Positions 9,268 to 24,380 of a DNA stretch of 64,000 bases are shown here, one piece after another. Source of the stretch: a virus; IMG/VR virus record IMGVR_UViG_3300037225_000856, positions 32,001-96,000 of that record; one strand, written 5' to 3'. Under the pieces are notes generated by a model. The model was given only the letters and a program-made list of their open reading frames with translations, had not been told where the DNA came from and did no database searches. A program made the translations under genes and the position numbers. How positions within the stretch are numbered: position 1 is the first letter of the stretch; each line of letters opens with the position of its first letter.

Positions 9268-9307
9268 TTTGTTTTTCTTAATTATTTAAATTATCTTTGT
9301 ATTTATT
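9268..9307 (+). promoter_or_regulatory. composite promoter for the tRNA: TTTG-N20-TATCTTTG overlapping GTATTTAT
   Basis: TTTG 9268-9271, TATCTTTG 9292-9299, GTATTTATT 9299-9307. Confidence 0.6.
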
Positions 9308-9635: not shown

Positions 9636-10727
9636 ATGAAGGGATTAACAACATATGAATTTATAATGAAAGCAGGATTTGTGCATGGTGATAGGTATGA
9701 TTATTCTAAAGTTGATTATATTAATAATAGGACAATGGTAGATATTATATGCAAAGAACATGGATTATTTCAACAAAATGCTTCAAACCATCTTGCTGGT
9801 CAGAATTGTCCTATTTGTATGGGTAGGGGAAAAGGTAATAGTGAGAGATTTATTAATGCTGCAAAACAAAAACATGAAGATAAATATGATTATTCTTTAG
9901 TTAAATATAAAGGTAGTAAATCTAAAATAAATATTATTTGTAAAGAACATGGTGTTTTCGAGCAAAGACCCACAAGACATTTATGCGGTGATGGTTGTCC
10001 TAAATGCAATGGTGGTGTTAAATCAAATCATAATGAATTTATTCAGAAGGCAAATGTTATACATGATAATAAATATGATTATTCATTAGTTGATTATATT
10101 AATTCAATAACAAAGGTTAAAATAATTTGTAAAAAACATGGTATTTTTGAAATGAAACCAAATTCTCATTTATGTGGACAAGGTTGCTATATGTGTGGTA
10201 TTGAAAAAAATACTCATACCACAGCACAATTTATTGAAAAAGCACAAAAAATTCACGGTAATATATATGATTATAACTTAGTTGATTATATTCATAATAA
10301 CATAAAAATAAAAATAATTTGTCGTGAACATGGAATTTTTGAACAAAAACCCTATTCGCATTTAAATGGTAGAGGTTGTTCTAAATGTAAAACCAAATCA
10401 AAAGGTGAATTATTTATTGCCAATTGGCTAAGTCAAAATGTTATTAGTTTCGAAGTTCAAAAATCATTTATTGATTGTAAAAATGTGCTGCCTTTAAGAT
10501 ATGATTTTTATTTACCTAAATATAATATGCTTATTGAATATGACGGTGAACCCCATTTTAGAGAAGTTGCTTATTTGGGCGGTAAAAGAGGTTTTGAATT
10601 AAGACAAACCAATGATAAATTAAAAACAGATTATGCAATAAACAATAACATTAATTTATTGCGTATTCCTTATACTGAAAGAAAATGTCTTTCAAAAATA
10701 TTAAAAAATAATATTGTAACTACTTAA
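9636..10727 (+). mobile_element. homing-endonuclease-like protein: DUF723-type Zn repeats + Vsr/PD-(D/E)xK domain
   Basis: four HGDKYDYS.V.Y..IICK.HG.F.Q..HL.G.GCP.C repeats, then SKGE, RYDFYLP, IEYDGEPHF. Confidence 0.8.
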
Positions 10728-10739
10728 TAATCAAAGCAT

Positions 10740-11861
10740 ATGACCTTCTTCAGTCGTCCCGATCTCAGTTCGGTCCAATTTAAACAATTACCCGATTCAA
10801 TATTAAATTTGTCTGGTCAAACCCGAATAGAAACAACAACAGGTTTAACACTTGCAAATGGTAGTGGCAGCACTATTATTATTAATGCAAAAGGTAGTGA
10901 TCTTGTTGGTAATGTATTAACTTTTGATGGCACTGAAATTAAATTAATGCCATCTACATCATCGGGTATTGTAGTATATAATCCGCCATATAGATCGCCA
11001 GCATCTATAACATTAGGTGGAATTATTACTGGAACTACGCTTACAGGAAGAACAATATCTTCAATTATTGAACAATTATTAGTTCCAACAGTAAATCCTA
11101 CTTTAAAAGCACCTTCAAGCACATTTAATGTTTCATTATCAAACCCATATGAAATAGGTTCTATTGTAAGTGTAGTTGGTTGTACATGTCTTAGTGTAGG
11201 TTCTATTAATCCACAATATTCTTCAGCGTCATCATGCAGAAGTAATGGTGCAATATCGCATAATTATATTGATTTTAATGGTGGTACTTGTAGTTGTTTT
11301 GGAAATACATGTACTTGTACACGCTCATTACCAGCATATACGGTTGTTGCAGGTATAAGAACAGCATATGGTTCTGTTTCATATTGTGCAGGTGTTCAAC
11401 CTAAAAATAATTGCGGTTCAAACTATTTAAGTCCATTAACTTCTGGAACTACAACTCCAATAGGTGTTATTGTTTGTGGTTTATATCCATATTTTTATGG
11501 CAAAGTTGCAAGTGGTGGTTGTCCTGCAGGTGTTAATAGACCAACACCAACGTGTGCATTGGTAATTAGCGGAACAAAATGTGTTTGTGACAGTAGTAGT
11601 ATTATATATATTAATTTTAATAGTACCTCAGATGATTATTTGTTTTTTGCAATACCAAGTGCTTCAGCAGCTAAAACATGTTGGTATATAAATGCACTTA
11701 ATAATGGTGCAATTGGTGGTGCAGTAAGTGCTGGTGGTAATTTATTCCCAGCACTTGCTTCTGTGAATCCAGTAACAACAGCATGTTGGGCAGGTCAAAC
11801 ATATAATGTTTATATAAGTAATTATCAATCGGCAGTAAATACATTAATGACAATATATTAA
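10740..11861 (+). CDS. virion structural / fibre-associated protein A1 (Cys-rich C-terminal half)
   Basis: S/T/G-rich; C-terminal domain paralogous to 16147..17136 (INFNS..DYL.FAIP..AAKTCW..NNGAIGG.VS..NLFPA). Confidence 0.55.
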   Translation: MTFFSRPDLSSVQFKQLPDSILNLSGQTRIETTTGLTLANGSGSTIIINAKGSDLVGNVLTFDGTEIKLMPSTSSGIVVYNPPYRSPASITLGGIITGTTLTGRTISSIIEQLLVPTVNPTLKAPSSTFNVSLSNPYEIGSIVSVVGCTCLSVGSINPQYSSASSCRSNGAISHNYIDFNGGTCSCFGNTCTCTRSLPAYTVVAGIRTAYGSVSYCAGVQPKNNCGSNYLSPLTSGTTTPIGVIVCGLYPYFYGKVASGGCPAGVNRPTPTCALVISGTKCVCDSSSIIYINFNSTSDDYLFFAIPSASAAKTCWYINALNNGAIGGAVSAGGNLFPALASVNPVTTACWAGQTYNVYISNYQSAVNTLMTIY

Positions 11862-11886
11862 TAATAAAAATTAAAAATATAAAAAA

Positions 11887-14802
11887 ATGGCAATAATATT
11901 AAATGATAATCTTAAAATAAATGCAGGTAAACCAATTGATTCGAGATATTTAACAACTGGAAATACTATATATACTTCAACTGGTGCAACCAATTCAGCA
12001 ATTCCAATTCCTTTAAGGTATACTGGTTTAACAGTTAATATTTTAGGCACTGAATATTGGTATAAAACTGGCGTTGCTGACATTAATTTAATTCAGAAAA
12101 TATATAATAGTATAATACCAATAGGTAATTTTATTACTGGTGCGACAAATATTGGATTTTTTAGTGGACATACAAGTATTCAAACACTTAATATTACAAC
12201 ATCAAGTGGCATAATTGGAAATTATTTAGATTATACTGGTAGTTATTCTTCATTATATAATTATTATTATAGAGGTTTTGATCAAAAAATTCATATTGGT
12301 ACACCAAATGATAACATACCAAAAAGAGGTTATGTAAAAACAGTATTACCAGTTGAATCATGGATTTGGAATCAATATACTGGTGGTAGTGGAAATTTAC
12401 TTGGTTGGATTTTTGTTCAAGGTGATATTTCATTAAAAATTGGACAAACTGTAAATGGTGTGATATATTATACTGGTTCGTCTCAAGTTTATACACAAAC
12501 TGCATGGAGTGCTCCAGCTAATAATGGAGGAAAAGCAGTTATTAATTCAGTTCTTGGCAGTTTAACAACTGGTACTACAATAAGTATTGGAGGACCGGTT
12601 TTTGCCACTAAAACCAATAATGTATTGAATTTTAGAACAATTCAAAGTAAAACTCCAAATATATTGAATATAAGTTCTGATGAAGCATTTATTTATTTAT
12701 CTGGCACAACACAAGCAGCACAAATAAATCAAGGTATTAATATTGGTAGTGGCGTTGGTATTTATGGAGGTTTAAGTGGTACATCTCTTCAATTTAGAAG
12801 TATTGTTGGTAGTGGTAATACAACAGTTGGTTTAAATGGAAATACAGTCGCAATTTATTCAAGCGGTGGTGGTACAATTACAGGTGCAACAAATGGTTTA
12901 AATATTAACGGTAAAAATGTTCAATTAGGTGGCACTATAACTATACCTACAATAATAAAAGATTCGAGAATAGTGCCTGTTGGTATTGAATATGACAGTA
13001 ATTATAATGTTACATTTAGTAGTCGTTCATTAGTAGATAAAGCATACGTAGATGCTGTTGCAGCAGGACTTGTTCCTAAATTAGCTGTTGAAGTTGCAAC
13101 AACAAGTAATATTACATTAAGTGGCATTTTAACAATTGATGGTGTTTCTACAATAAATAATATGAGAGTATTAGTTAAAAATCAAATAAGTGGTCAAACG
13201 AATGGAATATATGTTGTTAATAGTGGTGGTACTTGGAGTCGTTCAATAGATTTTAATTTTGTTCCTTCTGGTGAAGTTGTTCAAGGTGTATTAGTACCTG
13301 TTATTAGCGGTAATACACAAAAAAATACTCTTTGGGTATTAGTAACACCAAATCCAATTATTAGCGGAGTTACTTCAATAATATTTGGTTTATTTAGTAG
13401 TTCAAATTTTATTGCAGGTACTGGTATAAATATTGGGGGTAGTACGATATCAACAGATACACTAACTCAATCAATAATTAATTCTGCAATTACTGGTGCT
13501 ACAAACGGGTTAACAAAAATTAGTAATAGAAAAGTTTGTCTTGGTGGTACATTAAGTGATGACGTTACTATTAATTTAAATTCATGTAAAATAAATTTTA
13601 TTAATGGTAGTGTAGTATCATGTGGTGCAACAAGTCACGGTTTTGATAGTTATAATGATTATAAATTGAGTGGTCAGACATTTATAAGTGTACCTAGTAA
13701 AAATTTTGCTTGTGGTAATTTAGCTGTTGGTTATCAAGCACTTTATAATAACACAACTGGTTATGGTAATTTAGCTATTGGTTATGGTGCACTTTTAAAT
13801 AATACTTGTGGTAATCGTAATATTGCAATTGGTTATAATGCACTTTGTTCTAATACAACAGGAAGTACTAATATTGCAATTGGTAATTATGCACTTTTAC
13901 GTAATATTTATGGTTGTAATAATATTGCAATTGGTTGTAGTGCACTTTCTTATAACACTTGTGGTTGCAATAACATTGCTAATGGTTATGGTACACTTTT
14001 ATGTAATAAATTTGGTTGTAATAATATTGCAATTGGTTGTAGTGCACTTCTTTATAATACTTGTGGTTGTAATAACATTGCTAATGGTGGTTTTGCACTT
14101 TATAATAATATTAGTGGTTCTTCTAATATTGCAATTGGATGTGGTACACTTTTATATAATAAATTTGGTTGTAATAATATTGCAATTGGTTATCAAACAC
14201 TTTGTAGTAATATAACTGGAAGTACTAATATTGCAATAGGATATACTGCAGGATATTATGAAACAGGTTCAAGTAAATTATATATTGCAAATTCATCCAC
14301 AACTCATCCATTAATTTTTGGTGATTTTTCAACTAACTGTGCAATAATTTACGGTGCATTTAAAACAAGTGGTGCTACATCACTCCTTGTAGCTCCTGCT
14401 GCTGGTACAACCTCTGATGCAATATTGGTTTGGAATAGTAGTGATAAGTTAATTAAAACAATGCCATATATAAGTGGTGGTACTGGCGGGGGTGATAAAA
14501 ATAATATATATTCCAAAACCATAATTACTGGCAATACATTATTAACAACAGGTAGCACATATGTGATATTAGCATCAGGCACTTCAATAACAATTACATT
14601 ACCTACAACACCACTTACCGGACAAGTATTTAAAATTAAAGATGCCTATGGCAATGCATTGACTAACAATATAATTATTAATGCTGGTTCAGGTAGAACA
14701 ATTGATGGCTCACAATGTGCATTAATTAATACAAATTATGGTGCTCTTGAACTTATGTTTGGTGCTACATGTAAATGGTTTAATTTGGCTTTTATTAACT
14801 AA
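11887..14802 (+). CDS. tail fibre / adhesin-like protein B1 with 17-aa NIAIG..AL repeats
   Basis: VDKAYVD and ATTSNITLSG..IDGV..RVLVKNQ..NGIY..WSR fibre motifs; YadA/Hia-like repeats; C-terminal ITLP..G.VF.IKD domain. Confidence 0.75.
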   Translation: MAIILNDNLKINAGKPIDSRYLTTGNTIYTSTGATNSAIPIPLRYTGLTVNILGTEYWYKTGVADINLIQKIYNSIIPIGNFITGATNIGFFSGHTSIQTLNITTSSGIIGNYLDYTGSYSSLYNYYYRGFDQKIHIGTPNDNIPKRGYVKTVLPVESWIWNQYTGGSGNLLGWIFVQGDISLKIGQTVNGVIYYTGSSQVYTQTAWSAPANNGGKAVINSVLGSLTTGTTISIGGPVFATKTNNVLNFRTIQSKTPNILNISSDEAFIYLSGTTQAAQINQGINIGSGVGIYGGLSGTSLQFRSIVGSGNTTVGLNGNTVAIYSSGGGTITGATNGLNINGKNVQLGGTITIPTIIKDSRIVPVGIEYDSNYNVTFSSRSLVDKAYVDAVAAGLVPKLAVEVATTSNITLSGILTIDGVSTINNMRVLVKNQISGQTNGIYVVNSGGTWSRSIDFNFVPSGEVVQGVLVPVISGNTQKNTLWVLVTPNPIISGVTSIIFGLFSSSNFIAGTGINIGGSTISTDTLTQSIINSAITGATNGLTKISNRKVCLGGTLSDDVTINLNSCKINFINGSVVSCGATSHGFDSYNDYKLSGQTFISVPSKNFACGNLAVGYQALYNNTTGYGNLAIGYGALLNNTCGNRNIAIGYNALCSNTTGSTNIAIGNYALLRNIYGCNNIAIGCSALSYNTCGCNNIANGYGTLLCNKFGCNNIAIGCSALLYNTCGCNNIANGGFALYNNISGSSNIAIGCGTLLYNKFGCNNIAIGYQTLCSNITGSTNIAIGYTAGYYETGSSKLYIANSSTTHPLIFGDFSTNCAIIYGAFKTSGATSLLVAPAAGTTSDAILVWNSSDKLIKTMPYISGGTGGGDKNNIYSKTIITGNTLLTTGSTYVILASGTSITITLPTTPLTGQVFKIKDAYGNALTNNIIINAGSGRTIDGSQCALINTNYGALELMFGATCKWFNLAFIN
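13700..14260 (+). repeat. 51-bp (17-aa) coding tandem repeats in fibre B1
   Basis: recurring ggttgtaataatattgcaattggt..gcactt units. Confidence 0.85.
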
Positions 14803-14869
14803 TAATTTATAATTTATAATTTATTGGTGATAATAATTAAAATGAAAATTATTATATTCTTATTTTTTT

Positions 14870-14909
14870 CTTGTAAATTGAGTTTTTCATGATTATCTTT
14901 GTATTTATA
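14870..14909 (+). promoter_or_regulatory. composite promoter: TTG-N20-TATCTTTG overlapping GTATTTATA
   Basis: TATCTTTG 14894-14901, GTATTTATA 14901-14909, upstream of the glycosyltransferase. Confidence 0.6.
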
Positions 14910-14946
14910 AAAAAATATAAAAAATTATAAATTAAATTAAAACTCA

Positions 14947-15885
14947 ATGATAGTAAACAGTAAAAAAACAGATAATGATAGGTATGTAATCGCTGAAATT
15001 TTTGGCGGACATGGAAAAACCATCGTTTCAACTGCAGTAATTCGTGCAATTAAGAAGCAGTATCCTGATTATAAAATAATTGTAATTGCCAGTTGGGATG
15101 GAAGTTTTTTTTATAATCCTGATGTTTTTAGGTTCTTTTTACAAAATCAAATACCACAATACTTCAAAGAGGATTATCTTAAAGAAGATACTATTATAAT
15201 GAAACATGATCCTTATAATGAAACAAATCATATTCTTAGAAAAGAACATCTGACTGAGACTTGGTGTAAAATGTTTAATGTACCTTATGATGGTTATAAA
15301 CCTAAAATCTATTTAAACCCACGTGAACTTGAAATAGCGAGAGATAAAATAAAACCAGATAATCGTCCTATTATGCTTCTCCAGACACACGGAGGAAGCA
15401 ATCAACAATATTCGAAAAAATCTTGGTATAGGGATATGCCTATAGAGACAGCGCAAAAATTAGTAAATTATTTTAATAAGTCCTACCGTATACTTCATAT
15501 TAAGTCACCAGAGCAACCAATTTTACAAGGTGTTGAACCTCTTACTTTACCATATAGAGAATTATATGCCGTATTTCCACTTTCAACAAAAAGACTGTTC
15601 ATAGATTCTTTTGCTCAACATGTTGCAGCAGCATTGGATTTACCAAGCACTGTTGTTTGGATTGGTAATTCACCCAAAGTATTTGGTTATCCTGAAAATA
15701 TAAATATATTGCCGAATGCGAATATTATAAACAATCTTGATAAATTTACATACTTAGTTGATGATATTTCTGGCATGGTGCAAGCCTTCCCGTATGATAC
15801 TGTTAATTTGTTCGATATAAATAAAATTATTGAAGCAGTAAACAAACAACCAGTTCCAGATGTTTCAAAGATGAATTTCATGTAA
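14947..15885 (+). CDS. GT-B glycosyltransferase, GT9/heptosyltransferase-like
   Basis: N-terminal GGHGKTI..IRAIKKQYPD; C-terminal FIDSFAQHVAAALDLPSTVVW (DS..H.AAA motif). Confidence 0.75.
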   Translation: MIVNSKKTDNDRYVIAEIFGGHGKTIVSTAVIRAIKKQYPDYKIIVIASWDGSFFYNPDVFRFFLQNQIPQYFKEDYLKEDTIIMKHDPYNETNHILRKEHLTETWCKMFNVPYDGYKPKIYLNPRELEIARDKIKPDNRPIMLLQTHGGSNQQYSKKSWYRDMPIETAQKLVNYFNKSYRILHIKSPEQPILQGVEPLTLPYRELYAVFPLSTKRLFIDSFAQHVAAALDLPSTVVWIGNSPKVFGYPENINILPNANIINNLDKFTYLVDDISGMVQAFPYDTVNLFDINKIIEAVNKQPVPDVSKMNFM

Positions 15886-15924
15886 AGAGAATTAGTCATC
15901 ATTTTTAATGTTGTTTATTTTTTT

Positions 15925-15953
15925 AAAAACCCATTGTTATCAGTGGGTTTTTT
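15925..15953 (+). terminator. intrinsic terminator
   Basis: AAAAACCCATTG-TTAT-CAGTGGGTTTTTT. Confidence 0.75.
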
Positions 15954-16146
15954 GTTTTGGTTGTCATTTGTCAATTATTGTTTTAAAAGTATTTATAGAC
16001 ATTAAGATTAATTAATGTGAAAATAATGGTTCAATTATATTTATATTAATATTTTAAAGCTGTAATGGTAATTATTAATTAATAAAAACTATTTATAAAT
16101 AACTAATTAAAACTATTTATAGATAGATGATTTAAATATAAAAAAT

Positions 16147-17136
16147 ATGGGTTCTAATACAAAGATAATTTTAAGTGATAGTAAAGCATATCAAACAACT
16201 GGTCAAACACTAACATTATCAGGACATACAAAAATAGCAACTGTCGGTGATTTAAAATATGTAACACATCCAACATTTAGTGAAGATACTCAAATTATTG
16301 ATAAAAAATACGTTGATGATAGTGTTGTAACTACAGGAAGTACTATATATAATTTAGTATCACCATCTACAGTCACTGTTGGCGGGTTGACATCTGGAAC
16401 TGTATTAACAGGTAAAACTTCAAATGAAATACTTAAAGAAATTTTAGTAATGTATTTATTACCTTCTTTCAGTAGTTTTTGTAATAATGTTAGTACTCCT
16501 CTTGAAGTTGGTACTACAATAAGTGGTTCAAAATCATTTAGTTTTGGTTTTGCTAATGCAGGTAATGTTTGTGCAAATACTTTATCTATCAGAGACGTTA
16601 GTATAGGCAGTAATATTGCAACTGCTTGTCCAATATCATCACCTCAATCTGCAACTATTAATGCAAAAACATTTGCTTCTTGTGGTAATACTCAAGTTTG
16701 GTGTGGCTGTGCTACAAATACATGTGGTGCTCAAATAGGTTCAAGTAGTTATACAATAACAGGATTGTTACCTTATTATTGGGGTGTGTGCACATGCCCG
16801 GGTGCTGCTGGTGCTGGTCGTCCAACAGCAACTTGCGCTATGGTAATTGGTGGAACTAAAATACTTGCAAGCAGTGAAGCAATAAGTATTAATTTTAATA
16901 GTGGTGTTAATGATTATTTATGGTTTGCAATTCCTGCAACCGTTGCTGCTAAGACTTGTTGGTGTGTAAATGGTATTAATAATGGTGCAATTGGTGGCGG
17001 AGTAAGTCCTGCATGTAATCTTTTCCCTGCTCCTAATTCAATTAGTGTTACTACTGCTTGTTGGAGTGGTTGTAATTATTGTGTTTATATTAGTAATAAA
17101 CAAACATGTGCAACATCATCAATGTCATTAACATAA
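16147..17136 (+). CDS. virion structural / fibre-associated protein A2 (paralogue of A1, more Cys-rich)
   Basis: IDKKYVD; C-terminal domain aligns with 10740..11861. Confidence 0.55.
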   Translation: MGSNTKIILSDSKAYQTTGQTLTLSGHTKIATVGDLKYVTHPTFSEDTQIIDKKYVDDSVVTTGSTIYNLVSPSTVTVGGLTSGTVLTGKTSNEILKEILVMYLLPSFSSFCNNVSTPLEVGTTISGSKSFSFGFANAGNVCANTLSIRDVSIGSNIATACPISSPQSATINAKTFASCGNTQVWCGCATNTCGAQIGSSSYTITGLLPYYWGVCTCPGAAGAGRPTATCAMVIGGTKILASSEAISINFNSGVNDYLWFAIPATVAAKTCWCVNGINNGAIGGGVSPACNLFPAPNSISVTTACWSGCNYCVYISNKQTCATSSMSLT

Positions 17137-17144
17137 TAAAAATT

Positions 17145-17184
17145 AAAAGATATTTATAAAAACAAAAAGATATTTATAAAAACA
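17145..17184 (+). repeat. perfect 20-bp tandem duplication containing TATTTATA
   Basis: AAAAGATATTTATAAAAACA twice, immediately upstream of 17196. Confidence 0.9.
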
Positions 17185-17195
17185 AAATATAGAAA

Positions 17196-20100
17196 ATGGC
17201 AATAGTTTTAAACGATAACTTAAAAATTAATGTTGGTAATCCGATTGATTCTAAATATTTAAATTCTTTAAATCAACCATATACTGGTGTTACTGCTGTT
17301 AATACGGCAATAGTATTGTCACAAAGATATGTTGGTTTAACAGTTAATGTAAATAAAATAGAATATTGGTATAAAACAGGTGTTACTGATACTGCTTTAG
17401 TTGTTAAAGATAGTGGTATTGCAAATACCGGACTTACTATAGCAATTAATGGTTTAACAAAGGTTGGTAATGTTGTTAAATTAGGTGGTACATTAACTGG
17501 AGATACTACAATTAATTTAGCAACACATAATTTAAATTTAACTAATGGTAATTTAAATTTAACAAATGGCAATATACTATTAATAACAGGTAGTTCAATA
17601 CAATGGAGCGATGGTTCATATATTACAAATACTATTAATGGAATAAGTATAATTGATGATGATTTAATTGTTAGTGGTAATACAACAAGCGTTAAATTTA
17701 TTGAAAATGGTGTTTGTCTTGCAAATAAATATCTTGCAACTGGAGCAACAAGTGTTAATTCTAAAGCATTATGTGGTTGTATACCAAGTTGTTTTTTAGG
17801 TGCAAATTCTTGTGCAGTAGACAGTGCTAAATTAGGTAATAAATTACCAGCTTATTATCTTAATACTGGCACTACTATTATTTGTGCTTGTGATAGTGCT
17901 AAATTGAATAATAAATTACCTGCATATTATCTTAATACTGGTTCAACAGCTTTATGTGCTACTTGTGCAGGTAACGCTTCAACATTAGTCGGTTGTACAC
18001 CAAATTCATTTTTATTGTCTGGTGGTACAGCAGTAAATTCATCGAAATTAGGTAGTCATTTACCTGCATATTATCTTAATACAGGTAGTACAGCAATATG
18101 TGCAACAACAGCAATTAATTCAAAAGCATTATGTGGTTGTGTACCTGCAAGTTTTCTTCTTAGTGGTGGTACAGCTAAAAATTCATTATGTTTAGGCGGT
18201 AATTTAGCTAATACTTATGCATCACTTGCTTCACCTAATTTTACAACATGTATATGTACTCCCGTAATGTGTTCAACAGGTGTAGTTAAAGGAACAATAA
18301 TAAGTGGTTCAAGTTGTGTTGAATCACCAGTTATTCAATTAACAACAGGTGCTGGAGCAGGATGTGTTTTCACGTCAAATGCTACTGGTTGTGGTATTTG
18401 GTGTACTCCTGTTGCTGGTGGAATTCTATGGAGTGGTTCAACTGTTAATGGTGTTGGCACTTATTTGTCCGCATCAAAAATTTATTCAAATGTTAATATG
18501 ACATTTGATGGCACAAAATTGGGTGTAACTGGCAATATATGTGCAAGCACTTGCTTATGTTCTTCAATTACAATTGGTACATCATGTGTTTGCAGTCCTA
18601 TTATATTAGGTTCTAGTTGTGTATGTGGTTTTATTGTTTGTAGCAATACGTGTATTCTTGCAGGTACTTGTGTTACAGGTACAATTATGTGCGCATCTTC
18701 ATGTGTGAGAAGCCCATTAATTTCTGGTGGAACTGTTTGTGGTTTAACTGCTGTATGTGGTGGAATACATTGCGCAACTACTTGTTTTGCTGGTTCAGGT
18801 GCTGGTTTAACAGGCACTGCAGCCAGTTTAACTGTTGGTTGTGCGACTTGTGCTGTTGGAGCAAAAAATCTTTGTGGCTGTGTACCTACATCATTTTTAC
18901 TTAGTGGTGGTACTGCTGTATGTTCAACCTGTGCTGGCAATGCAAGTACCGTGGCTGGTTGTACTCCTTCATGTTTCTTGGGAGTAACCGCATGTGCTTG
19001 TGATTCGAAATGTTTAGGTGGTCATTTACCTGCATATTATCTCAATACTGGTAGTACTGCAATATGTGCAACTTGTGCAATAGGTGCTAAAAACCTTTGT
19101 GGTTGTGTTCCAGCATCGTTTTTACTTAGTGGTGGTACTGCAAAAAATAGTACTTGTTTAAACGGACAATTAGCAAGTTATTATGCACCAATAGCAAGTC
19201 CTAATTTTACAACTTGTATTTGCGCACCTATTGTTTGTGCAACTACTTGTTTTGTTGGTAGTGGTGCAGGTTTAACTGGCACTGCAGTTTCACTAAAAAG
19301 TAATGATTCTTGTTGTTTAAATGGAGTATTAGCTGCAGGTTATCTTTTATCTGGTGGTACAGCTAAAAATTCATTATGTTTAGGTGGTAAATTACCTGCA
19401 TATTACCTTAATACAGGTACTACAATTACTTGTGCAAATGATTCAGCAAAATTAAATAATAGATTACCAGCATATTATCTTAATACTGGCAGTACTGCAT
19501 TATGTGCAACTTGCGCTGGTAATGCATCAACATTAGTAGCTTGCACACCATCATGTTTTTTAGGTGCTACTGCTTGTGCAGTTGATAGTGCAAAATTGGG
19601 TAATAAATTACCTGCTTATTATCTTAATACTGGTAGTACAGCAATATGTGCAACAACTGCAGGAAATGCATTATGTTTAGGTGGTTCACTTGCTGCTTGT
19701 TATGCTACAAAAGCATTAGCAATTACTGGTGCTACAAGTTTAGGTAGTGGATGTGTTGTTTATTCAACAGTTGCTAATAATAACTTAAAATTTAAGTCAT
19801 TAAGTGGTGGAAGTGGTATTTCAATGAGCAGTACTGCAAATGTAATTAATATTTGTGGTATTGGTTGGTCAAATTTAACTAATGGTTCAACTGTTGTTGG
19901 TTGTGGAACAGTTGCAAGTGGCAACACATCTTTATGTAATACATTTATTGGTGTTTGTGCAGGTAAGAATATTAATATTGCTGGTTGTGATAATACTGGT
20001 ATTGGTTTTCAAGCACTTTACAGTAATACTTGTGGTTTTGGCAATGTTGCAATTGGTTTTCAAGCACTTCAAAGTAATATTAGTGGTCTTGGCAATGTTG

Positions 20101-21296
20101 CAAATGGTTATAAAGCACTTCAAAGTAATATTTGTGGTTATAGTAATATTGCAATTGGTACTAATGCACTTCAAGGTAATATTTGTGGTAGTTGTAATAT
20201 TGCAATTGGTCCTGATGCACTTTCTTGTAATAGTTGTGGTTCATATAATGTTGCAATAGGTACTGGTGCACTTGAAGCTAATTGTTGTGGTGGTTGTAAT
20301 GTTGCAATTGGTAATAGTGCACTTGAATTTAATATTAGTGGTGTTGGCAATGTTGCAAATGGTTTTCAAGCACTTTTGTATAATATAATTGGTTCTAATA
20401 ATATTGCAATAGGTTTTAATACACTTCGATGTAATGGAGAGTCTTGTAATAATATTGGAATAGGTTCTAATGCACTTTTTAATAATACTTGTGGTTATTG
20501 CCTTATTGCAATAGGTCATCAAGCATTATGCGGTAATATTTGTGGTTGTGATAATGTTGCTGTGGGATATCAGGCACTTTATTTTAATACTGGTGGTACT
20601 AATAATATTGCAATTGGTTCTCAAACACTTTATTGTAATATAATTGGTTGTGATAATATAGCAAATGGTGTTCAAGCACTTTATTTTAATACTGGTGGTA
20701 ATGATAATATAGCAAATGGTGTTCAAGCACTTTATAATAATATTTGTGGTTGTGATAATATAGCAAATGGTGTTCAAGCACTTTATAATAATACTTGTGG
20801 TAATGCTAATATTGCAAATGGTGTTCAAGCACTTTATAATAATACTTGTGGTAATGCTAATATTGCAAACGGTACTGCTGCACTTCTGAATAATACTTGT
20901 GGTAATGCTAATGTTGTTAATGGTCATTATGCACTTTATTGCAATACTCATGGTTCATATAATGTTGCAATAGGTTATCAAGCAGGGTATTCACAAGTTA
21001 CTGGTAGTACAAGTATATATATAGGTAATTGTGCTGGTTATAACGAAACCGATGGATGTAGACTTTATATTGCAAATTCAGGTACTGTTAATCCATTAAT
21101 TTATGGTGAATTTGATACTAAAAGATTAGTAATAAGTGGTACTACTGAAATTGTAAATGGTACTTGTAATTATTTATATTTAGGCAATAAAGACACTGAT
21201 GGCAGTTGGAGATTTGCAATAAGTGGAGGAACAGACTTCATTATTCAAAAAAGAATAGCAACGGTATGGACAACAAAATTATATGTGTTAGGATAA
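17196..21296 (+). CDS. long Cys-rich tail fibre / adhesin-like protein B2
   Basis: N-terminus paralogous to B1 (MAI.LNDNLKIN.G.PIDS.YL); ~23-aa DSAKL.N.LPAYYLNTG repeats; 17-aa NIA.G..AL repeats; C-terminal YLG..DTDGSWR. Confidence 0.75.
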   Translation: MAIVLNDNLKINVGNPIDSKYLNSLNQPYTGVTAVNTAIVLSQRYVGLTVNVNKIEYWYKTGVTDTALVVKDSGIANTGLTIAINGLTKVGNVVKLGGTLTGDTTINLATHNLNLTNGNLNLTNGNILLITGSSIQWSDGSYITNTINGISIIDDDLIVSGNTTSVKFIENGVCLANKYLATGATSVNSKALCGCIPSCFLGANSCAVDSAKLGNKLPAYYLNTGTTIICACDSAKLNNKLPAYYLNTGSTALCATCAGNASTLVGCTPNSFLLSGGTAVNSSKLGSHLPAYYLNTGSTAICATTAINSKALCGCVPASFLLSGGTAKNSLCLGGNLANTYASLASPNFTTCICTPVMCSTGVVKGTIISGSSCVESPVIQLTTGAGAGCVFTSNATGCGIWCTPVAGGILWSGSTVNGVGTYLSASKIYSNVNMTFDGTKLGVTGNICASTCLCSSITIGTSCVCSPIILGSSCVCGFIVCSNTCILAGTCVTGTIMCASSCVRSPLISGGTVCGLTAVCGGIHCATTCFAGSGAGLTGTAASLTVGCATCAVGAKNLCGCVPTSFLLSGGTAVCSTCAGNASTVAGCTPSCFLGVTACACDSKCLGGHLPAYYLNTGSTAICATCAIGAKNLCGCVPASFLLSGGTAKNSTCLNGQLASYYAPIASPNFTTCICAPIVCATTCFVGSGAGLTGTAVSLKSNDSCCLNGVLAAGYLLSGGTAKNSLCLGGKLPAYYLNTGTTITCANDSAKLNNRLPAYYLNTGSTALCATCAGNASTLVACTPSCFLGATACAVDSAKLGNKLPAYYLNTGSTAICATTAGNALCLGGSLAACYATKALAITGATSLGSGCVVYSTVANNNLKFKSLSGGSGISMSSTANVINICGIGWSNLTNGSTVVGCGTVASGNTSLCNTFIGVCAGKNINIAGCDNTGIGFQALYSNTCGFGNVAIGFQALQSNISGLGNVANGYKALQSNICGYSNIAIGTNALQGNICGSCNIAIGPDALSCNSCGSYNVAIGTGALEANCCGGCNVAIGNSALEFNISGVGNVANGFQALLYNIIGSNNIAIGFNTLRCNGESCNNIGIGSNALFNNTCGYCLIAIGHQALCGNICGCDNVAVGYQALYFNTGGTNNIAIGSQTLYCNIIGCDNIANGVQALYFNTGGNDNIANGVQALYNNICGCDNIANGVQALYNNTCGNANIANGVQALYNNTCGNANIANGTAALLNNTCGNANVVNGHYALYCNTHGSYNVAIGYQAGYSQVTGSTSIYIGNCAGYNETDGCRLYIANSGTVNPLIYGEFDTKRLVISGTTEIVNGTCNYLYLGNKDTDGSWRFAISGGTDFIIQKRIATVWTTKLYVLG
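19980..20990 (+). repeat. 51-bp (17-aa) coding tandem repeats in fibre B2
   Basis: near-identical gataatatagcaaatggtgttcaagcactttat units at about 20650-20870. Confidence 0.85.
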
Positions 21297-21323: not shown

Positions 21324-21354
21324 TTTGTTTATTCAATTTCTTTTTATATATTTG
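21324..21354 (+). promoter_or_regulatory. Bacteroidota promoter TTTG-N19-TATATTTG for the secreted-protein block
   Basis: TTTG 21324-21327, TATATTTG 21347-21354. Confidence 0.65.
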
Positions 21355-21460: not shown

Positions 21461-22519
21461 ATGAAAAAAAAATTAATTGCGTTTTTGGTTTTAATAATGT
21501 TTACAACAATAAGTTATGGACAACTTATTGCACCAAATGGAATAGAGATTGGTAAGAAAACAAGTCATACTATTTTAAAAACCGATTCTATTGCATTATC
21601 TGGAACACATACAGCTATTTCATATAAAGGTTCAGACACTCTTATGTATTATATTCCTTTTAATGATAGAGCTTATGATAATAATTCTTCTTCGAATTTA
21701 ATACCTGTACTTTCGTCTGATCCTGCAACAGGTAATGCTTACATAAATTCTGTTGATAATAAACTACATTATCTCTCTGGTGGTTATTGGCATCGTGTAG
21801 CTATTATTGATAGTACGGCAGCTTCAGCATCACCCTCTACTCTTTTAAATGAATTGGTTGGCTATTGGAAGTTTGATGAAACATCAGGAACAAATCTGGC
21901 AGATGCTACGGCAGGAGCACATAATGCTACCCTTGGAGCAGGTACAGTCAATCAGACAGGAAAAATTGGCAAAGCAGTCACATATAATAATACAGGCTAT
22001 GCCACAGTACCCTATGCAGCATTTTCTGCAATAACAGATAAAGAGACTATTTCTTTTTGGTTTTATCCAACTTCATTACCATCCACTGTTACAAGAAATG
22101 AATGGCTATTCACTCATGAAATTGCAGGGACAAGCGAAACATCAAGAGTTCTATGGAATAAAGATGATAATAAAATCTATGCGATATTTGATAACACATC
22201 AGACGTGACTTATCAGGTTAATAGTGCAGCAATAACAGGGCTCAGTCAATGGTACCACATAGTCGCTGTTTGTCCCGGTAATGGTCAGGCACTTAAACTT
22301 TATATCAATGATGTTGATGTTTCAACTTCACCCGGTACATTTTCCGGCACACTGAAAGTCTCAACTGCTCAGGCTATTATTGCCAATGATGATGCTAGTG
22401 ACAATTATGGGTTAGTAGGAACTTTGGACGAATTGGGGATATGGAGAAGGGCTTTGTCCGCTTCAGGGGTTGATTCAGTATATGTTAAAGAAAATACAGG
22501 AACAAGTTATCCATTTTAA
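21461..22519 (+). CDS. secreted LamG/concanavalin-A-like domain protein
   Basis: Sec signal MKKKLIAFLVLIMFTTISYGQ; LVGYWKFDE, GKIG, WYHIVAV, LYIN, GTLDELGIW.RAL. Confidence 0.8.
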   Translation: MKKKLIAFLVLIMFTTISYGQLIAPNGIEIGKKTSHTILKTDSIALSGTHTAISYKGSDTLMYYIPFNDRAYDNNSSSNLIPVLSSDPATGNAYINSVDNKLHYLSGGYWHRVAIIDSTAASASPSTLLNELVGYWKFDETSGTNLADATAGAHNATLGAGTVNQTGKIGKAVTYNNTGYATVPYAAFSAITDKETISFWFYPTSLPSTVTRNEWLFTHEIAGTSETSRVLWNKDDNKIYAIFDNTSDVTYQVNSAAITGLSQWYHIVAVCPGNGQALKLYINDVDVSTSPGTFSGTLKVSTAQAIIANDDASDNYGLVGTLDELGIWRRALSASGVDSVYVKENTGTSYPF

Positions 22520-22530
22520 AATATATAGTC

Positions 22531-24372
22531 ATGAAAAAAATATTAATGTTATTTTGTTTTTTAGTTTTCACTTCTTCGCTATTCAGTCAGGCTTGGACAT
22601 TTCCGGGATGGCAACCATATAAGGTAAAGCAGTATTTTGGAGATAGTGTTTATGTTGCAAAGGATATTAGGACACCTTCTGGTTATGTGCAGACACAGTT
22701 AAATACTTTGCAAGATAGCATAGCAGCACTTAGGACATCTATTATATCATTACAAGCAGCTTCATCACCCTCTTATCCTACATATTACATAGCTAATGCA
22801 GGTTCGGATGGGGCAGATGGGTTAACACCTGCAACACCTTGGCAGACAATAGCAAAAATAAATAGTGCAATGGCATCATTAGTTCCCGGATCAAAAGTTT
22901 ATTTTAATCGTGGGGATCAGTGGAGAGAACAACTTACTATAACACAAAATGGTTCAGCAACGAATCCGATTACCTTTACAGCTTACGGAACAGGGGCAAA
23001 GCCCAAGATTAACGCCGCCGATATTAAGACAGGATGGGGTCATAAATATCATCAATATTCAAATATCTGGGGAATAGTCTGTCCTAATGTTACTCCTGCA
23101 AGGTGTATGGTAGTTATTAATGGGATACTTTTCACGCAGACTACTTCGGTGGCGGCATTGAGTTCAGGTAAATATTTCATCAAGGTAGGTACTCCTGATA
23201 GTGTCTATGTTTGTTCAGCTACCGATCCTTCTACGGTGACATCTGAAGTATCGGCAAGGGATTATGGTATTTATTCAACAAAAAAATATCTTACTATTTC
23301 TTATCTGGATGTAAGAATGGCGGGAAGTAAGGGGATATTACTTGAAGGCTCAGGTGTAGAAGTGGATGGATATTCGCTCATTGATAGTTGCAATGTTTAT
23401 CGTAACAGACTTGCCGGAATTGGTCTTTATGACGGATATAGTTATTCTACAATACAGAGATGTACAGGTACGTATAATGGTAATACGTTTATCTCATGGG
23501 GTAATCAAATTGGTGGTGAAGGAACAGGAGGGGTAGGTAGTGATTATAATACAATTAAGAATTGTTATTCTGCTTATTCTATACACGATTATGCTATAGC
23601 GGGACAATATTCAGATGGAACTGCTTATCAGACATTTAATTCTAATGGTGATGTTATTCAAAACAATGAAAGTGGTCATGATGCAGAGGGTATATTTCTT
23701 GATCCCCATACAAAAGGTAGTACAACGGTGACTTGTAGATACAATTACGTTCATGATTGTAATACCACAACAGCCAGTCAAGCTATTGGAATTGGTACTT
23801 CTGGGACGGGTGATGTTTTCAATATTTATTATAATCTAGTTGTTAACTGTGGTAACTCAGGAGGAGCCTACGCACCGATTATGTTTGCGAATACAATTGG
23901 AGGCCATGTATATTTTTATAATAACACTGTTTATAATAATGGGGTTGCAGTTATACTTACACAACTTTTTGCAGTACATGGCACGAATATAACAATGAAG
24001 AATAATATATTCTATTTTTCGACAGCTTCAGATAGCTATTATTTCAACTGGGAAATCAGTAGTACTGGATTCTGGACAAGTGATTATAATCAAGTATATA
24101 AATCTACAGGAGGTACTGCTGTATATGCTTATGCTCAATACAACGGAGGAGCACCTTATACTACTTTTGCAGCATGGAAATCAGCAAGCAGTCAGGATGC
24201 TCATAGTGGCTATGTCGACCCATTATTTACTACGACTGGATCAGATTTTACCCTACAGACAGGTTCACCTTGTAAGAATACAGGAACAGTTATTGCAACT
24301 ATCCCACAAGTAGATATTTTAGGCAATCCAATAGTCGGGTTGCCGGACATGGGATGTTATGAACATCAATAA
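22531..24372 (+). CDS. secreted right-handed parallel beta-helix (pectate-lyase-like) protein
   Basis: signal peptide; YYIA..GSD..DG.TP.TPWQTI, FNRGD, YNNT, KNNIF, DYN, DP.F, DF.LQ.GSPC, PDMGCYE. Confidence 0.8.
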   Translation: MKKILMLFCFLVFTSSLFSQAWTFPGWQPYKVKQYFGDSVYVAKDIRTPSGYVQTQLNTLQDSIAALRTSIISLQAASSPSYPTYYIANAGSDGADGLTPATPWQTIAKINSAMASLVPGSKVYFNRGDQWREQLTITQNGSATNPITFTAYGTGAKPKINAADIKTGWGHKYHQYSNIWGIVCPNVTPARCMVVINGILFTQTTSVAALSSGKYFIKVGTPDSVYVCSATDPSTVTSEVSARDYGIYSTKKYLTISYLDVRMAGSKGILLEGSGVEVDGYSLIDSCNVYRNRLAGIGLYDGYSYSTIQRCTGTYNGNTFISWGNQIGGEGTGGVGSDYNTIKNCYSAYSIHDYAIAGQYSDGTAYQTFNSNGDVIQNNESGHDAEGIFLDPHTKGSTTVTCRYNYVHDCNTTTASQAIGIGTSGTGDVFNIYYNLVVNCGNSGGAYAPIMFANTIGGHVYFYNNTVYNNGVAVILTQLFAVHGTNITMKNNIFYFSTASDSYYFNWEISSTGFWTSDYNQVYKSTGGTAVYAYAQYNGGAPYTTFAAWKSASSQDAHSGYVDPLFTTTGSDFTLQTGSPCKNTGTVIATIPQVDILGNPIVGLPDMGCYEHQ

Positions 24373-24380
24373 AAATTAGT

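What the first reader, a model, noticed from the sequence alone, without database searches (positions are those of the whole stretch)
10740..21296. Systematic cysteine substitution in the fibre proteins
Seen: B1 has no Cys in its first 550 residues (first at 13537) and is then Cys-dense. B2 reaches 16 Cys in ~90 residues at ~18531-18800. Paralogue and repeat alignments show Cys replacing unrelated residues at equivalent positions: WYIN/WCVN, AGGNLF/PACNLF, GQTYNVY/GCNYCVY (A1 vs A2); VQLGG/VKLGG/VCLGG; NTTG/NTCG in the 17-aa repeats. Spacing is irregular, unlike Zn-finger pairs. Inference: selection for exposed thiols on the fibres, serving as S-glycosylation or other modification acceptors, a disulfide-crosslinked coat formed after lysis, or metal/mineral/mucin binding.
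Basis: partly seen in the sequence, partly recalled or inferred. Interest (0 to 1): 0.78.

Follow-up and report, generated by a model that had tools for sequence, protein, structure and literature searches.

The report
Cysteine-loaded tail fibres of huge phages
The host-binding fibres of this ~300-kb uncultured phage and many relatives carry 4-10% cysteine, mostly at variable and probably exposed positions, while close relatives have none, an unexplained on/off trait I found in no paper.

Summary
B2 has 102 Cys in 1366 aa (7.5%; central part 9.9%), A1 4.3%, A2 5.2% and B1 residues 551-971 5.0%. The rest of the genome has 1.09% and random codons would give 2.66%.

- **Not conserved pairs.** Among Cys-rich homologues Cys is conserved less than the average residue. 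Cys columns do not covary and Cys counts are as often odd as even.
- **Position.** In the 17-residue repeats Cys occurs only at variable positions. In the A family it favours columns that are variable and polar in Cys-free relatives. N-terminal (presumably virion-proximal) domains have none.
- **On/off trait.** Homologues have either about 0% or 2-9% Cys, with at least 13 switches on the A-family tree. Nearly all fibre paralogues of one phage agree. Non-fibre orthologues of a Cys-rich and a Cys-free genome do not differ.
- **Structural exception.** B2's central module has motif-bound Cys, including a recurrent CxxC...CxC cluster.
- **S-glycosylation.** The embedded enzyme has a GT9-like fold. 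It also occurs in a complete phage with Cys-free fibres and is absent from a phage with a Cys-rich fibre, so this reading is weakened.

No radical SAM, reverse transcriptase or thiol oxidase tracks the trait. Best guess (about 0.35): an exposed thiol coat that cross-links fibres by disulfide or metal.

The parts
10740..11861 (+). A1, a 373-aa fibre-associated protein of a large family (1946 clusters). It has 16 Cys (4.3%), all after residue 147.
11887..13536 (+). B1 residues 1-550, the Cys-free N-terminal part of the first long fibre (0 Cys; P = 0.0024 at the genome background).
13537..14802 (+). B1 residues 551-971, the Cys-bearing distal part (21 Cys, 5.0%). It includes eight 17-residue repeats (residues 645-780) with Cys at repeat positions 6, 10, 11, 14 and 16.
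14947..15885 (+). C1, a 312-aa GT9-like glycosyltransferase with 1 Cys. It is 66-91% identical in the 14 related phage loci aligned with it (61% in G012) and, in the loci mapped, lies at or near the 3' end of the fibre clusters. In this window it sits between B1 and A2. It is not strictly linked to the Cys-rich state.
16147..17136 (+). A2, a 329-aa paralogue of A1 (37% identical). It has 17 Cys (5.2%), all after residue 111.
17196..17714 (+). B2 residues 1-173, a Cys-free N-terminal domain. Its first 71 residues are 61% identical to the start of B1.
17715..19835 (+). B2 residues 174-880, the central module of about 21-27-residue units (...A-x-[ND]-[SA]-x-x-L-x-G-x-[LV]-P-[AS]-x-[YF]-L-x-x-G-x-T-A-x-C-A...). 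It has 70 Cys (9.9%). Cys are partly motif-bound and include CATCA..LCGC clusters. The module was found only in Cys-rich uncultured relatives.
18531..18800 (+). B2 residues 446-535, the densest stretch (16 Cys in 90 aa), with roughly 11-residue S-C-V-C-x-x-I-I-x-G-S periodicity.
19992..21011 (+). B2 residues 933-1272, twenty 17-residue YadA-head-like repeats N-[IV]-A-[IN]-G-x-x-A-L-x-x-N-x-x-G-x-x. Cys occur only at variable positions. This is the only part with relatives in isolated phages, which I did not score for Cys; the many Cys-free metagenomic homologues also align here.

Best explanation
The Cys excess is a selected, fibre-specific, switch-like trait. It occurs in a group of roughly 300-360-kb low-GC phages, probably of Bacteroidota, and in a few small phages that share their fibre modules.

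**Shown**
- Cys lie in the C-terminal parts of the fibre proteins, which I take to be distal and host-facing. The N-terminal (presumably virion-proximal) domains have none.
- In the repeats Cys occupy only the variable positions.
- In Cys-free homologues the same columns are variable and enriched in V, E, R, Q, T, N and K.
- Cys positions turn over faster than the average residue while Cys content is kept.
- There is no pairwise covariation and no preference for even counts.
- The same folds exist with zero Cys.

**Inferred**
- The fibres carry a dense coat of exposed or interface thiols that forms opportunistic cross-links. These would be disulfides once the virion meets oxygen, or metal-thiolate bridges in anoxic, metal-rich water.
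- Threefold symmetry would bring the same Cys of three chains together. CxC spacing and same-position stacking in successive repeats would put Cys on one face of a strand or solenoid. A single substitution could therefore create a partner without any coevolving second site.
- The cross-links would stiffen, register or bundle the fibres.
- The recurrent CxxC...CxC cluster of B2's central module is the one place where Cys look like fixed structural braces (metal site or double disulfide).
- The neighbouring GT9-like enzyme most likely glycosylates the fibres on Ser or Thr and is a separate matter.
For: **Excess and specificity**
- Cys excess against the genome background and the random-codon expectation.
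- 135 orthologue pairs between a Cys-rich genome (G023) and a Cys-free genome (G006) have a median Cys difference of 0.00. The two largest differences are fibre genes.
- Nearly all fibre paralogues of one phage share the state.

**Position of the Cys**
- They occur only at variable repeat positions, with position 16 at 26-28%.
- In the A family, Cys frequency rises from 0.9% at conserved columns to 5.2% at the most variable ones. The matching residues in Cys-free homologues are polar.
- The N-terminal 50 residues have 0.2% Cys despite equal variability.

**Turnover**
- Cys conservation against mean identity: 30 vs 47%, 34 vs 41%, 25 vs 45% and 31 vs 48%.
- Orthologues 79-88% identical still differ at 28-43% of Cys columns, and 84% of the exchanges need 2-3 base changes.
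- No covariation, and 28 even against 31 odd Cys counts.

**Geometry and distribution**
- CxC is enriched and CC depleted.
- Same-position stacking has odds ratios of 6 and 2.2.
- The distribution is bimodal, with at least 13 switches on the tree.
- The four-Cys cluster is present in 42% of 112 units and a three-Cys form in 32%.

**Precedents for disulfide-linked phage tail parts**
- Pam3 fibre-to-baseplate disulfides (PMC9942802).
- gp39 tail-tube rings (PMC13576161).
- The P22 tailspike cysteine annulus (PMC3357383).
Against: - No structure. The AlphaFold2 monomer model of B2 residues 170-900 failed (mean pLDDT 35), and the tools return no coordinates. Exposure and symmetric contacts are therefore inferred from sequence only.
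- No phage thiol oxidase or Dsb was found. Thioredoxin is present in both states.
- The only relative whose habitat I could document is from an anoxic landfill leachate well, where disulfides would not form. The metal-bridge version is untested.
- Cys-free relatives build the same fibres, so the benefit is conditional and unknown.
- A1 and A2 exceed the random-codon expectation only modestly (P = 0.04 and 0.008).
Confidence: 0.35

Rival explanations
1. Cys are acceptor sites for an enzymatic modification. Candidates are S-glycosylation by the GT9-like C1 or by the GT2 enzymes of the upstream sugar island, or another Cys-directed chemistry.
For: - C1 has a GT9 fold with TibC, a protein heptosyltransferase, among the top hits.
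- C1 lies in the fibre cluster in 18 of 43 Cys-rich loci and 0 of 16 Cys-poor loci within 10 kb (Fisher P = 0.001).
- It is 66-91% identical in the 14 related loci aligned.
- A kinase, cupin isomerase, nucleotidyltransferase and epimerase cluster related to ADP-heptose synthesis, together with GT2 genes, lies upstream. It is shared with Cys-rich G023 and absent from Cys-free G006.
- Other windows of this scan reported enzyme-matured Cys-rich fibre tips.
Against: - Complete G012 keeps C1 (61% identical) in a fibre cluster with 0-0.7% Cys.
- G038 (98% complete) has a 5-6% Cys fibre and no C1.
- The association is confounded by relatedness.
- There is no motif around the Cys.
- No radical SAM or SPASM enzyme tracks the state.
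- From my own knowledge, unchecked here: characterised GT9 protein transferases act on Ser, and characterised S-glycosyltransferases are GT2 enzymes acting on small peptides.
Confidence: 0.12
2. The thiols are the binding chemistry itself. Exposed Cys on the distal fibre parts would bind the host surface, mucus-like polymers, or metal or sulfide particles by thiol-disulfide exchange or soft-metal coordination.
For: - Cys are confined to the C-terminal parts, which I take to be distal and host-facing, and are absent from N-terminal domains.
- They lie at variable, polar positions, as expected for interaction surfaces.
- Rapid turnover is typical of receptor-binding surfaces.
- One relative comes from metal-rich landfill leachate.
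Against: - No receptor or ligand is known.
- Cys are spread along long shafts (17-residue arrays and the central module), not concentrated in a tip.
- Both states occur in the same metagenomes.
Confidence: 0.15
3. There is no specific function. In anoxic niches the usual purging of Cys from extracellular proteins is relaxed, and AT-rich codon drift (TGT) plus the beta-strand propensity of Cys lets it accumulate at free positions. Oxic relatives purge it to zero.
For: - The random-codon expectation is 2.66% Cys at this base composition. A1 and A2 exceed it only modestly.
- Cys behave like interchangeable small residues (partners T, A, S, V) at unconstrained columns.
- The documented habitats are a leachate well for a Cys-rich relative and a plankton sample for a Cys-free one.
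Against: - Variable repeat positions average about 12% Cys and reach 28%. B2's central module has 9.9% (P = 8e-20 against neutral).
- Equally variable N-terminal domains have 0-0.2% Cys.
- Non-fibre proteins of the Cys-rich genome compared (G023) show no shift.
- 84% of exchanges need 2-3 base changes.
- Intermediate Cys contents are rare.
- Both states coexist in four metagenomes.
Confidence: 0.15
4. Classical structural cysteines: fixed intrachain disulfides or zinc sites that are needed for folding of all these domains.
For: Some Cys are conserved across the A-family members aligned here, such as K-T-C-W (invariant in the six-sequence alignment) and T-A-C-W (seen in A1/A2). The central-module cluster CATCA..LCGC is also partly conserved, and Cys conservation in the central module is 50% against a mean identity of 43%.
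Against: - Homologues with 0 Cys exist within E = 1e-105 of the family profile.
- Cys are conserved less than average in A1, A2 and the repeat arrays.
- There is no covariation and no even-number bias.
- Three-Cys and one-Cys variants of the cluster are common.
Confidence: 0.08
5. An artefact or a directed mutational process: codon reassignment of TGT, diversity-generating retroelement mutagenesis, or assembly error.
For: The on/off pattern superficially resembles a recoding signature.
Against: - The same trait is seen in dozens of independent metagenomes.
- TGT encodes the CxxC cysteines of a treble-clef zinc-finger match in the endonuclease of the same genome.
- The matching residues in homologues are diverse, not one amino acid.
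- One ordinary tRNA-Cys is present in both a Cys-rich and a Cys-free complete genome.
- No reverse transcriptase is present in six near-complete relatives.
Confidence: 0.02

Closest known systems
Disulfide-linked phage tail parts: cyanophage Pam3 fibre-to-baseplate disulfides (PMC9942802), siphovirus gp39 tail-tube ring disulfides (PMC13576161) and the P22 tailspike cysteine annulus (PMC3357383)
   Same: Cys in tail or adhesin proteins of tailed phages are used, or proposed to be used, for intersubunit covalent links. For gp39 the Cys-bearing proteins form one branch (about 14%) of a family whose other members lack them.
   Different: In those cases a few Cys per subunit sit at fixed, conserved positions (one to a handful of sites in Pam3, two per gp39 monomer). 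Here there are 16-102 Cys per protein (4-10%), mostly at non-conserved variable positions. They have no detectable pairing and the state has switched on and off many times.
Trimeric autotransporter YadA-head-like repeats and 'tail fiber domain-containing' proteins with the Peptidase_S74 chaperone (SPO1 gp2.52, pelagiphage and cyanophage fibres)
   Same: The 17-residue repeat N-x-A-x-G-x-x-A-L-x-x-N-x-x-G-x-x of B1 and B2 is the same repeat family.
   Different: Most metagenomic homologues of this repeat part have 0-0.3% Cys. The isolated-phage relatives were found by similarity only and were not scored for Cys. B1 and B2 gave no Pfam match, including Peptidase_S74. B2's central Cys-rich module has no relative in isolated phages.
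TibC/Aah autotransporter heptosyltransferases with TibA/AIDA-I (GT9-like protein glycosylation of beta-helical adhesin repeats)
   Same: C1 has the GT9 GT-B fold, with TibC among the top structural matches (TM 0.64-0.66). It is encoded among repeat-rich adhesin-like proteins, with a kinase/nucleotidyltransferase/epimerase cluster related to ADP-heptose synthesis in the genome.
   Different: From my own knowledge, unchecked here, TibC is about 400 aa, has an iron-finger Cys motif and modifies Ser. C1 is about 302 aa with one conserved Cys. No acceptor is known, and C1 also occurs with Cys-free fibres.
Radical-SAM-matured Cys-repeat fibre-tip proteins reported by this scan in other phages (notes e1-5862467, e1-137388 and others; unchecked AI notes)
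   Same: Cys-rich proteins in tail-fibre modules of large phages.
   Different: Those are short regular Cys repeats next to radical SAM/SPASM enzymes. Here Cys are scattered through whole fibre proteins, and no radical SAM gene lies near the fibres or tracks the state.
High-sulfur structural proteins that harden by many non-conserved disulfides (keratin-associated proteins, Bacillus spore-coat CotY/ExsY, chlamydial OmcB). Comparison from my own knowledge.
   Same: High Cys density matters more than exact position, and the proteins form extracellular structural assemblies.
   Different: These are unrelated folds and organisms. Cross-linking of the phage fibres is not shown.

Membership tests
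YadA-head-like repeat tail fibres (PHROG 6002/23837/4636; 'tail fiber domain-containing protein') | Arrays of short repeats with the N-x-A-x-G ... N-x-x-G consensus, matching the family profiles | tested here: met
   PHROG hits at E = 1e-69, 2e-54 and 4e-41 for B2, and 1.5e-41 and 2.8e-36 for B1. There are 20 and 8 repeats in exact 17-residue register. 2402 homologues were found.
YadA-head-like repeat tail fibres | C-terminal Peptidase_S74 intramolecular chaperone (present in many members) | tested here: not met
   No Pfam hit in B1 or B2 at E <= 0.01. Homologues P0005, P0010 and P0024 do carry it.
Glycosyltransferase family 9 (heptosyltransferases) | GT-B two-Rossmann fold closest to GT9 structures | tested here: met
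   The C1 model has pLDDT 80 and pTM 0.83. Foldseek top hits are 3tov (GT9, E = 9e-13), 1psw (WaaF), 4rap/4rb4 (TibC) and 2h1f (WaaC).
Glycosyltransferase family 9 (heptosyltransferases) | Sequence match to the Pfam/NCBIfam GT9 models above their cut-offs | tested here: not met
   No PF01075 match in the genome. The only sequence signal is a 30-residue N-terminal match to TIGR02201, at E = 6e-4 and 19 bits against a cut-off of 170.
Glycosyltransferase family 9 (heptosyltransferases) | ADP-heptose donor and a defined acceptor | not testable with these tools
   RfaE-I-like and RfaE-II-like genes, a cupin isomerase and an epimerase are present but score below the equivalog cut-offs. No GmhA (SIS) gene was found in the fragment.
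Disulfide-stabilised phage tail proteins (Pam3, gp39 type) | Conserved Cys at fixed intersubunit positions | tested here: not met
   Cys are conserved less than the average residue in A1, A2 and the repeat arrays. There is no covariation.
Disulfide-stabilised phage tail proteins (Pam3, gp39 type) | Disulfides present in virions | not testable with these tools
   This needs virions or recombinant protein.
Radical-SAM/SPASM-matured Cys-repeat fibre proteins | Adjacent radical SAM/SPASM maturase | tested here: not met
   No PF04055 or PF13186 match in the 112-kb record and none in five relatives' records. In complete genomes a radical SAM gene is present in G023, G024 and the Cys-free G006 and absent from the Cys-rich G036. 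In G023 (the only one I mapped) it lies about 250 kb from the fibre cluster.
Diversity-generating retroelement targets | Reverse transcriptase in the genome | tested here: not met
   No PF00078 match in the record or in six near-complete relatives.
Metal-binding Cys clusters (zinc-knuckle or metallothionein-like) | Recurrent CxxC/CxC ligand sets with all ligands conserved | tested here: inconclusive
   C-A-T-C-A-x5,6-L-C-G-C occurs with all four Cys in 47 of 112 units, with three in 36 and with one in 24. Metal content is not testable here.

The most novel reading that the evidence does not exclude
Fibre cysteine loading is an ecological switch. Huge phages would repeatedly convert the distal surfaces of all their fibres between a thiol-free form and a thiol-dense form. 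In the dense form the thiols would be chemically active in infection, either as redox- or metal-gated cross-links that set fibre stiffness or deployment, or as acceptors of a new Cys-directed virion modification such as S-heptosylation. This would be a mode of virion surface chemistry not described for tailed phages.
Probability: 0.2. Interest if true: 0.85.

Novelty: new variant of a known kind. Interest (0 to 1): 0.62.

Why it matters
Tail fibres decide which hosts a phage can attack, and extracellular virion proteins normally avoid unpaired cysteine. Here a large uncultured family does the opposite. The A family has 1946 clusters at 50% identity and B2 has 2402 homologues. Many members load the host-facing parts of every fibre with thiols whose number, not position, is kept, while close relatives have none.

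If the thiols cross-link or bind metals, that would be a tunable, environment-dependent way of hardening or gating the adsorption apparatus. If they are modified, it would be a new virion chemistry. Either way the clean on/off contrast between syntenic 320-360-kb genomes (G023 against G006 and G012) gives a ready comparative system. The result also separates the fibre glycosylation system (GT9-like enzyme plus a sugar-nucleotide cluster) from the cysteine question.

Tried and rejected
- **Structure of B2.** AlphaFold2 of B2 residues 170-900 with a 20-row alignment gave mean pLDDT 35 and was useless. The tools return no coordinates, so solvent exposure of Cys could not be computed.
- **Solved structures by sequence.** Nothing useful for B1, B2, a Cys-free homologue or the C1 profile.
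- **ESM Atlas.** Only unnamed viral clusters.
- **Habitat through the literature.** IMG sample numbers were traced in six searches. Three samples were traced: a landfill leachate well, a plankton sample and a hydrothermal 'RED' sample.
- **Genome collection scan for the central module.** No relatives in 185,579 species genomes.
- **Radical SAM/SPASM, Erv1, DsbA, thioredoxin, reverse transcriptase, tRNA-Cys copy number.** None tracks the Cys state.
- **Families 'specific' to Cys-rich loci.** Apart from C1 these turned out to be GIY-YIG and HNH homing endonucleases.
- **Bacteroidota promoter motif.** Not enriched in the window (5 matches against 5.8 expected), although two copies lie before the tRNA and before the secreted-protein cassette.
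- **PF16040 hits on homologues.** Spurious low-complexity Cys matches.


Full report
**Context.** The window is bases 32001-96000 of a 112,403-bp IMG/VR virus record that CheckV estimates to be 37% complete. Its GC content is about 29%. Complete relatives are 322-363 kb, so this is a fragment of a huge phage.

The finding covers five genes plus a neighbour that is not part of it:
- A1, 10740-11861.
- B1, 11887-14802.
- C1, 14947-15885.
- A2, 16147-17136.
- B2, 17196-21296.
- The gene before A1 (9636-10727) is an HNH-type homing endonuclease. Its 16 Cys are zinc-finger CxxC pairs and do not belong to the phenomenon.

| Protein or part | Cys | Share |
|---|---|---|
| B2 whole (1366 aa) | 102 | 7.5% |
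| B2 residues 1-173 | 0 | 0% |
| B2 residues 174-880 | 70 | 9.9% |
| B2 residues 881-1290 | 31 | 7.6% |
| A1 | 16 | 4.3% |
| A2 | 17 | 5.2% |
| B1 residues 1-550 | 0 | 0% |
| B1 residues 551-971 | 21 | 5.0% |

All other ORFs of the record together have 1.09% Cys. Random codons at this base composition would give 2.66%. B2 exceeds both by a wide margin (P = 9e-51 and 8e-20). A1 and A2 clearly exceed the background but exceed the random-codon value only modestly. TGT outnumbers TGC about 9:1, as expected for an AT-rich genome.

One correction is needed. CxC is twice as frequent as expected and CC is depleted, and one central-module unit type carries a regular C-A-T-C-A-x5,6-L-C-G-C cluster. The spacing is therefore not purely irregular.

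**What the proteins are.** B1 and B2 match phage virion and tail-fibre profiles through arrays of 17-residue repeats, N-[IV]-A-[IN]-G-x-x-A-L-x-x-N-x-x-G-x-x. These are the YadA-head-like repeats of 'tail fiber domain-containing' proteins. Isolated phages (SPO1 gp2.52, pelagiphages, cyanophages) match only this part.

B2's central module (residues 174-880) consists of roughly 21-27-residue units. I found it only in Cys-rich uncultured relatives: 397 units in 21 proteins.

A1 and A2 belong to a large family with no Pfam match for these two members, comprising 1946 clusters at 50% identity.

**The trait is bimodal.**
- Of the 120 best B2 homologues, about 45 have 2.2-8.7% Cys and nearly all the rest 0-0.9%, most of these at 0-0.3%.
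- Of the 150 best A-family representatives, 52 have under 0.5% (mostly exactly 0), about 90 have 2-8%, and only 7 lie between 0.5 and 1.5%.
- A tree built with all Cys masked needs at least 13 changes of state, and well-supported branches force at least 6. On a conserved backbone gene of the same phages at least 2 changes are needed, and the Cys-free phage L040 is nested among Cys-rich ones.
- Within a phage nearly all fibre paralogues share the state, apart from Cys-free N-terminal-type fibre ORFs that also occur in Cys-rich phages. The flanking syntenic genes have ordinary Cys content in both states.
- A whole-genome comparison of a complete Cys-rich relative (G023, 362,763 bp) with a complete Cys-free one (G006, 321,624 bp) gives a median Cys difference of 0.00 over 135 orthologues. 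The fibre genes are the two largest differences. The trait is therefore specific to fibres and is not a shift of the whole proteome.

**Where the Cys sit.**
- In 442 repeats from Cys-rich proteins, Cys never occurs at the conserved positions 1-5, 8, 9, 12 and 15. It occurs only at positions 6, 7, 10, 11, 13, 14, 16 and 17, and position 16 reaches 28%. In Cys-free homologues these positions hold a mix of Y, S, N, Q, T and others.
- Most repeats have one Cys. The only positive associations that stand out are between the same position in successive repeats (position 14 odds ratio 6, position 16 odds ratio 2.2).
- In the A family, Cys frequency rises from 0.9% at columns that are conserved in Cys-free members to 5.2% at the most variable columns (Spearman P = 1e-5). 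At Cys-bearing columns the Cys-free members are enriched in V, E, R, Q, T, N and K and depleted in W, F, Y, P and G.
- The first 50 residues are as variable as the rest but hold 0.2% Cys.
- In the central module, Cys alternate with T, N, D, K, H, Y and G at six unit positions. Positions such as A2, L8, P13, the Y/F at position 16, L17 and A23 hold no Cys (G10 and G20 likewise); T22 holds 16%.

Cys are thus placed where a polar, variable and therefore probably exposed residue would otherwise be. This is an inference from sequence. The one structure model that bore on it failed.

**Not conserved pairs.** Among Cys-rich homologues, Cys is conserved less than the average residue in three of the four regions compared.

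| Region | Cys conserved | Mean identity |
|---|---|---|
| A1 | 30% | 47% |
| A2 | 34% | 41% |
| B2 repeat array | 25% | 45% |
| B1 repeat array | 31% | 48% |
| B2 central module | 50% | 43% |

- Orthologues that are 79% and 88% identical still differ at 43% and 28% of their Cys columns. 84% of Cys-to-other exchanges need two or three base changes.
- Cys columns do not covary (maximum phi 0.50, against a null 95th percentile of 0.52).
- Cys counts are even in 28 proteins and odd in 31.
- A family member within E = 1e-105 of the profile has no Cys at all.

Classical disulfide or zinc sites are therefore excluded for most Cys. The central-module cluster remains a candidate for a fixed brace: all four Cys in 42% of 112 units, three in 32% and one in 21%.

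**The glycosyltransferase.**
- C1 folds confidently (pLDDT 80, pTM 0.83). It is closest to GT9 enzymes, including the protein heptosyltransferase TibC, although sequence models barely see it.
- It is 66-91% identical in the 14 related loci aligned (61% in G012), while the fibres of those loci are only 35-70% identical to A1.
- In the loci mapped it lies at or near the 3' end of the fibre clusters.
- The record also holds a large sugar-nucleotide island. This includes a PfkB kinase, cupin isomerase, cytidylyltransferase-like enzyme and epimerase related to ADP-heptose synthesis. The cluster is shared with G023 and absent from G006.
- Fibre glycosylation is thus likely. Its link to Cys is weak:
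  - C1 is in 18 of 43 Cys-rich loci and 0 of 16 Cys-poor loci within 10 kb.
  - Yet the complete Cys-free G012 keeps C1 inside its fibre cluster.
  - The 98%-complete small phage G038 has a 5-6% Cys fibre without C1.
- No residue motif surrounds the Cys.

**Other candidate causes.**
- No radical SAM or SPASM gene lies in the record or tracks the state. This sets the case apart from the radical-SAM/Cys-repeat fibre tips that this scan noted in other genomes.
- No reverse transcriptase is present.
- No Erv1 or DsbA was found, and thioredoxin occurs in both states.
- One tRNA-Cys is present in both states.

**Habitat.** Only scraps could be recovered.
- G023 comes from landfill leachate well LW4 (doi 10.1101/2024.05.30.596742).
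- The sample of the Cys-free G006 also yielded a giant-virus genome discussed in a study of plankton viruses.
- A contig whose name marks it as sediment is Cys-rich, and one labelled 'marine metagenome' is Cys-free.
- Four metagenomes hold both states, the Cys-free ones being distant homologues.
- Redox habitat may contribute but cannot be the whole cause.

**Explanation.** I commit, at about 0.35, to an exposed or interface thiol coat that forms opportunistic cross-links, either disulfide or metal-thiolate.
- In a homotrimer a single substitution supplies its own symmetry-related partners. This would explain rapid turnover without covariation.
- The CxC and same-position patterns fit Cys lining one face.
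- The rarity of intermediate Cys contents fits a cooperative benefit.

The rivals are thiol-mediated binding (0.15), relaxed constraint without function (0.15), enzymatic modification including S-glycosylation (0.12), classical structural sites (0.08, central module only) and artefact or recoding (0.02). The remaining 0.13 is left for causes I have not thought of.

**Novelty.** Full-text searches found disulfide-linked tail parts with a few fixed Cys (PMC9942802, PMC13576161, PMC3357383). They found nothing on high-density, position-unstable Cys loading of fibres or on its on/off distribution.

Noticed in passing
G000:C1:1-32000 (upstream of the window; loci L015, L016): A roughly 30-kb sugar-nucleotide and glycosylation island. 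It holds five NAD-dependent epimerase/dehydratases, three GT2 enzymes, other glycosyltransferases, two FkbM methyltransferases and a UDP-GlcNAc 2-epimerase. At 21686-24467 lies a PfkB kinase, cupin isomerase, cytidylyltransferase-like enzyme and epimerase cluster related to ADP-heptose synthesis. That cluster is shared with G023 and absent from G006.
   Followed up: partly
G000:C1:1-32000: One ORF matches the RuBisCO large-chain catalytic domain (Pfam E = 2.7e-31) inside the phage record.
   Followed up: no
L181:18413-18485 (G023) and L197:344-417 (G006): Both complete relatives encode about 45-55 tRNAs in a syntenic block, a tmRNA, and a tRNA with a CUA (amber-reading) anticodon. This hints at possible TAG read-through or recoding in this phage group. 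The fibre ORFs here are open under table 11.
   Followed up: no
window 9636-10727; L018:2880-3644; L018:4474-5184 and similar: HNH zinc-finger and GIY-YIG homing endonuclease genes are repeatedly inserted in or next to the fibre clusters of these phages. This may help shuffle fibre modules.
   Followed up: partly
L007:12898-13488; L011:2827-3696: Small ORFs of 196 and 289 aa with 11% and 9% Cys lie directly after Cys-rich fibre genes in more distant phages. They were not characterised.
   Followed up: no
window 18531-18800: The densest Cys stretch has a period of about 11 residues (S-C-V-C-x-x-I-I-x-G-S). From memory it resembles narrow disulfide-braced beta-helices such as insect antifreeze proteins. 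There is no structural support.
   Followed up: no
window, ORFs outside the finding (Pfam scan): The window and the 16 kb downstream also encode an anti-CBASS Acb1-like protein, a Mom-like protein, an IS605 OrfB/Cas12f-like TnpB, two sigma-70-like factors, a family B DNA polymerase exonuclease domain and a poly(A) polymerase-like (CCA-adding type) enzyme.
   Followed up: no
window 9268-9299 and 21324-21354: Two TTTG-N17-21-TAnnTTTG (Bacteroidota-type promoter) matches lie just upstream of the tRNA-Met and of the signal-peptide protein cassette. The motif is not enriched in the window overall (5 against 5.8 expected).
   Followed up: partly
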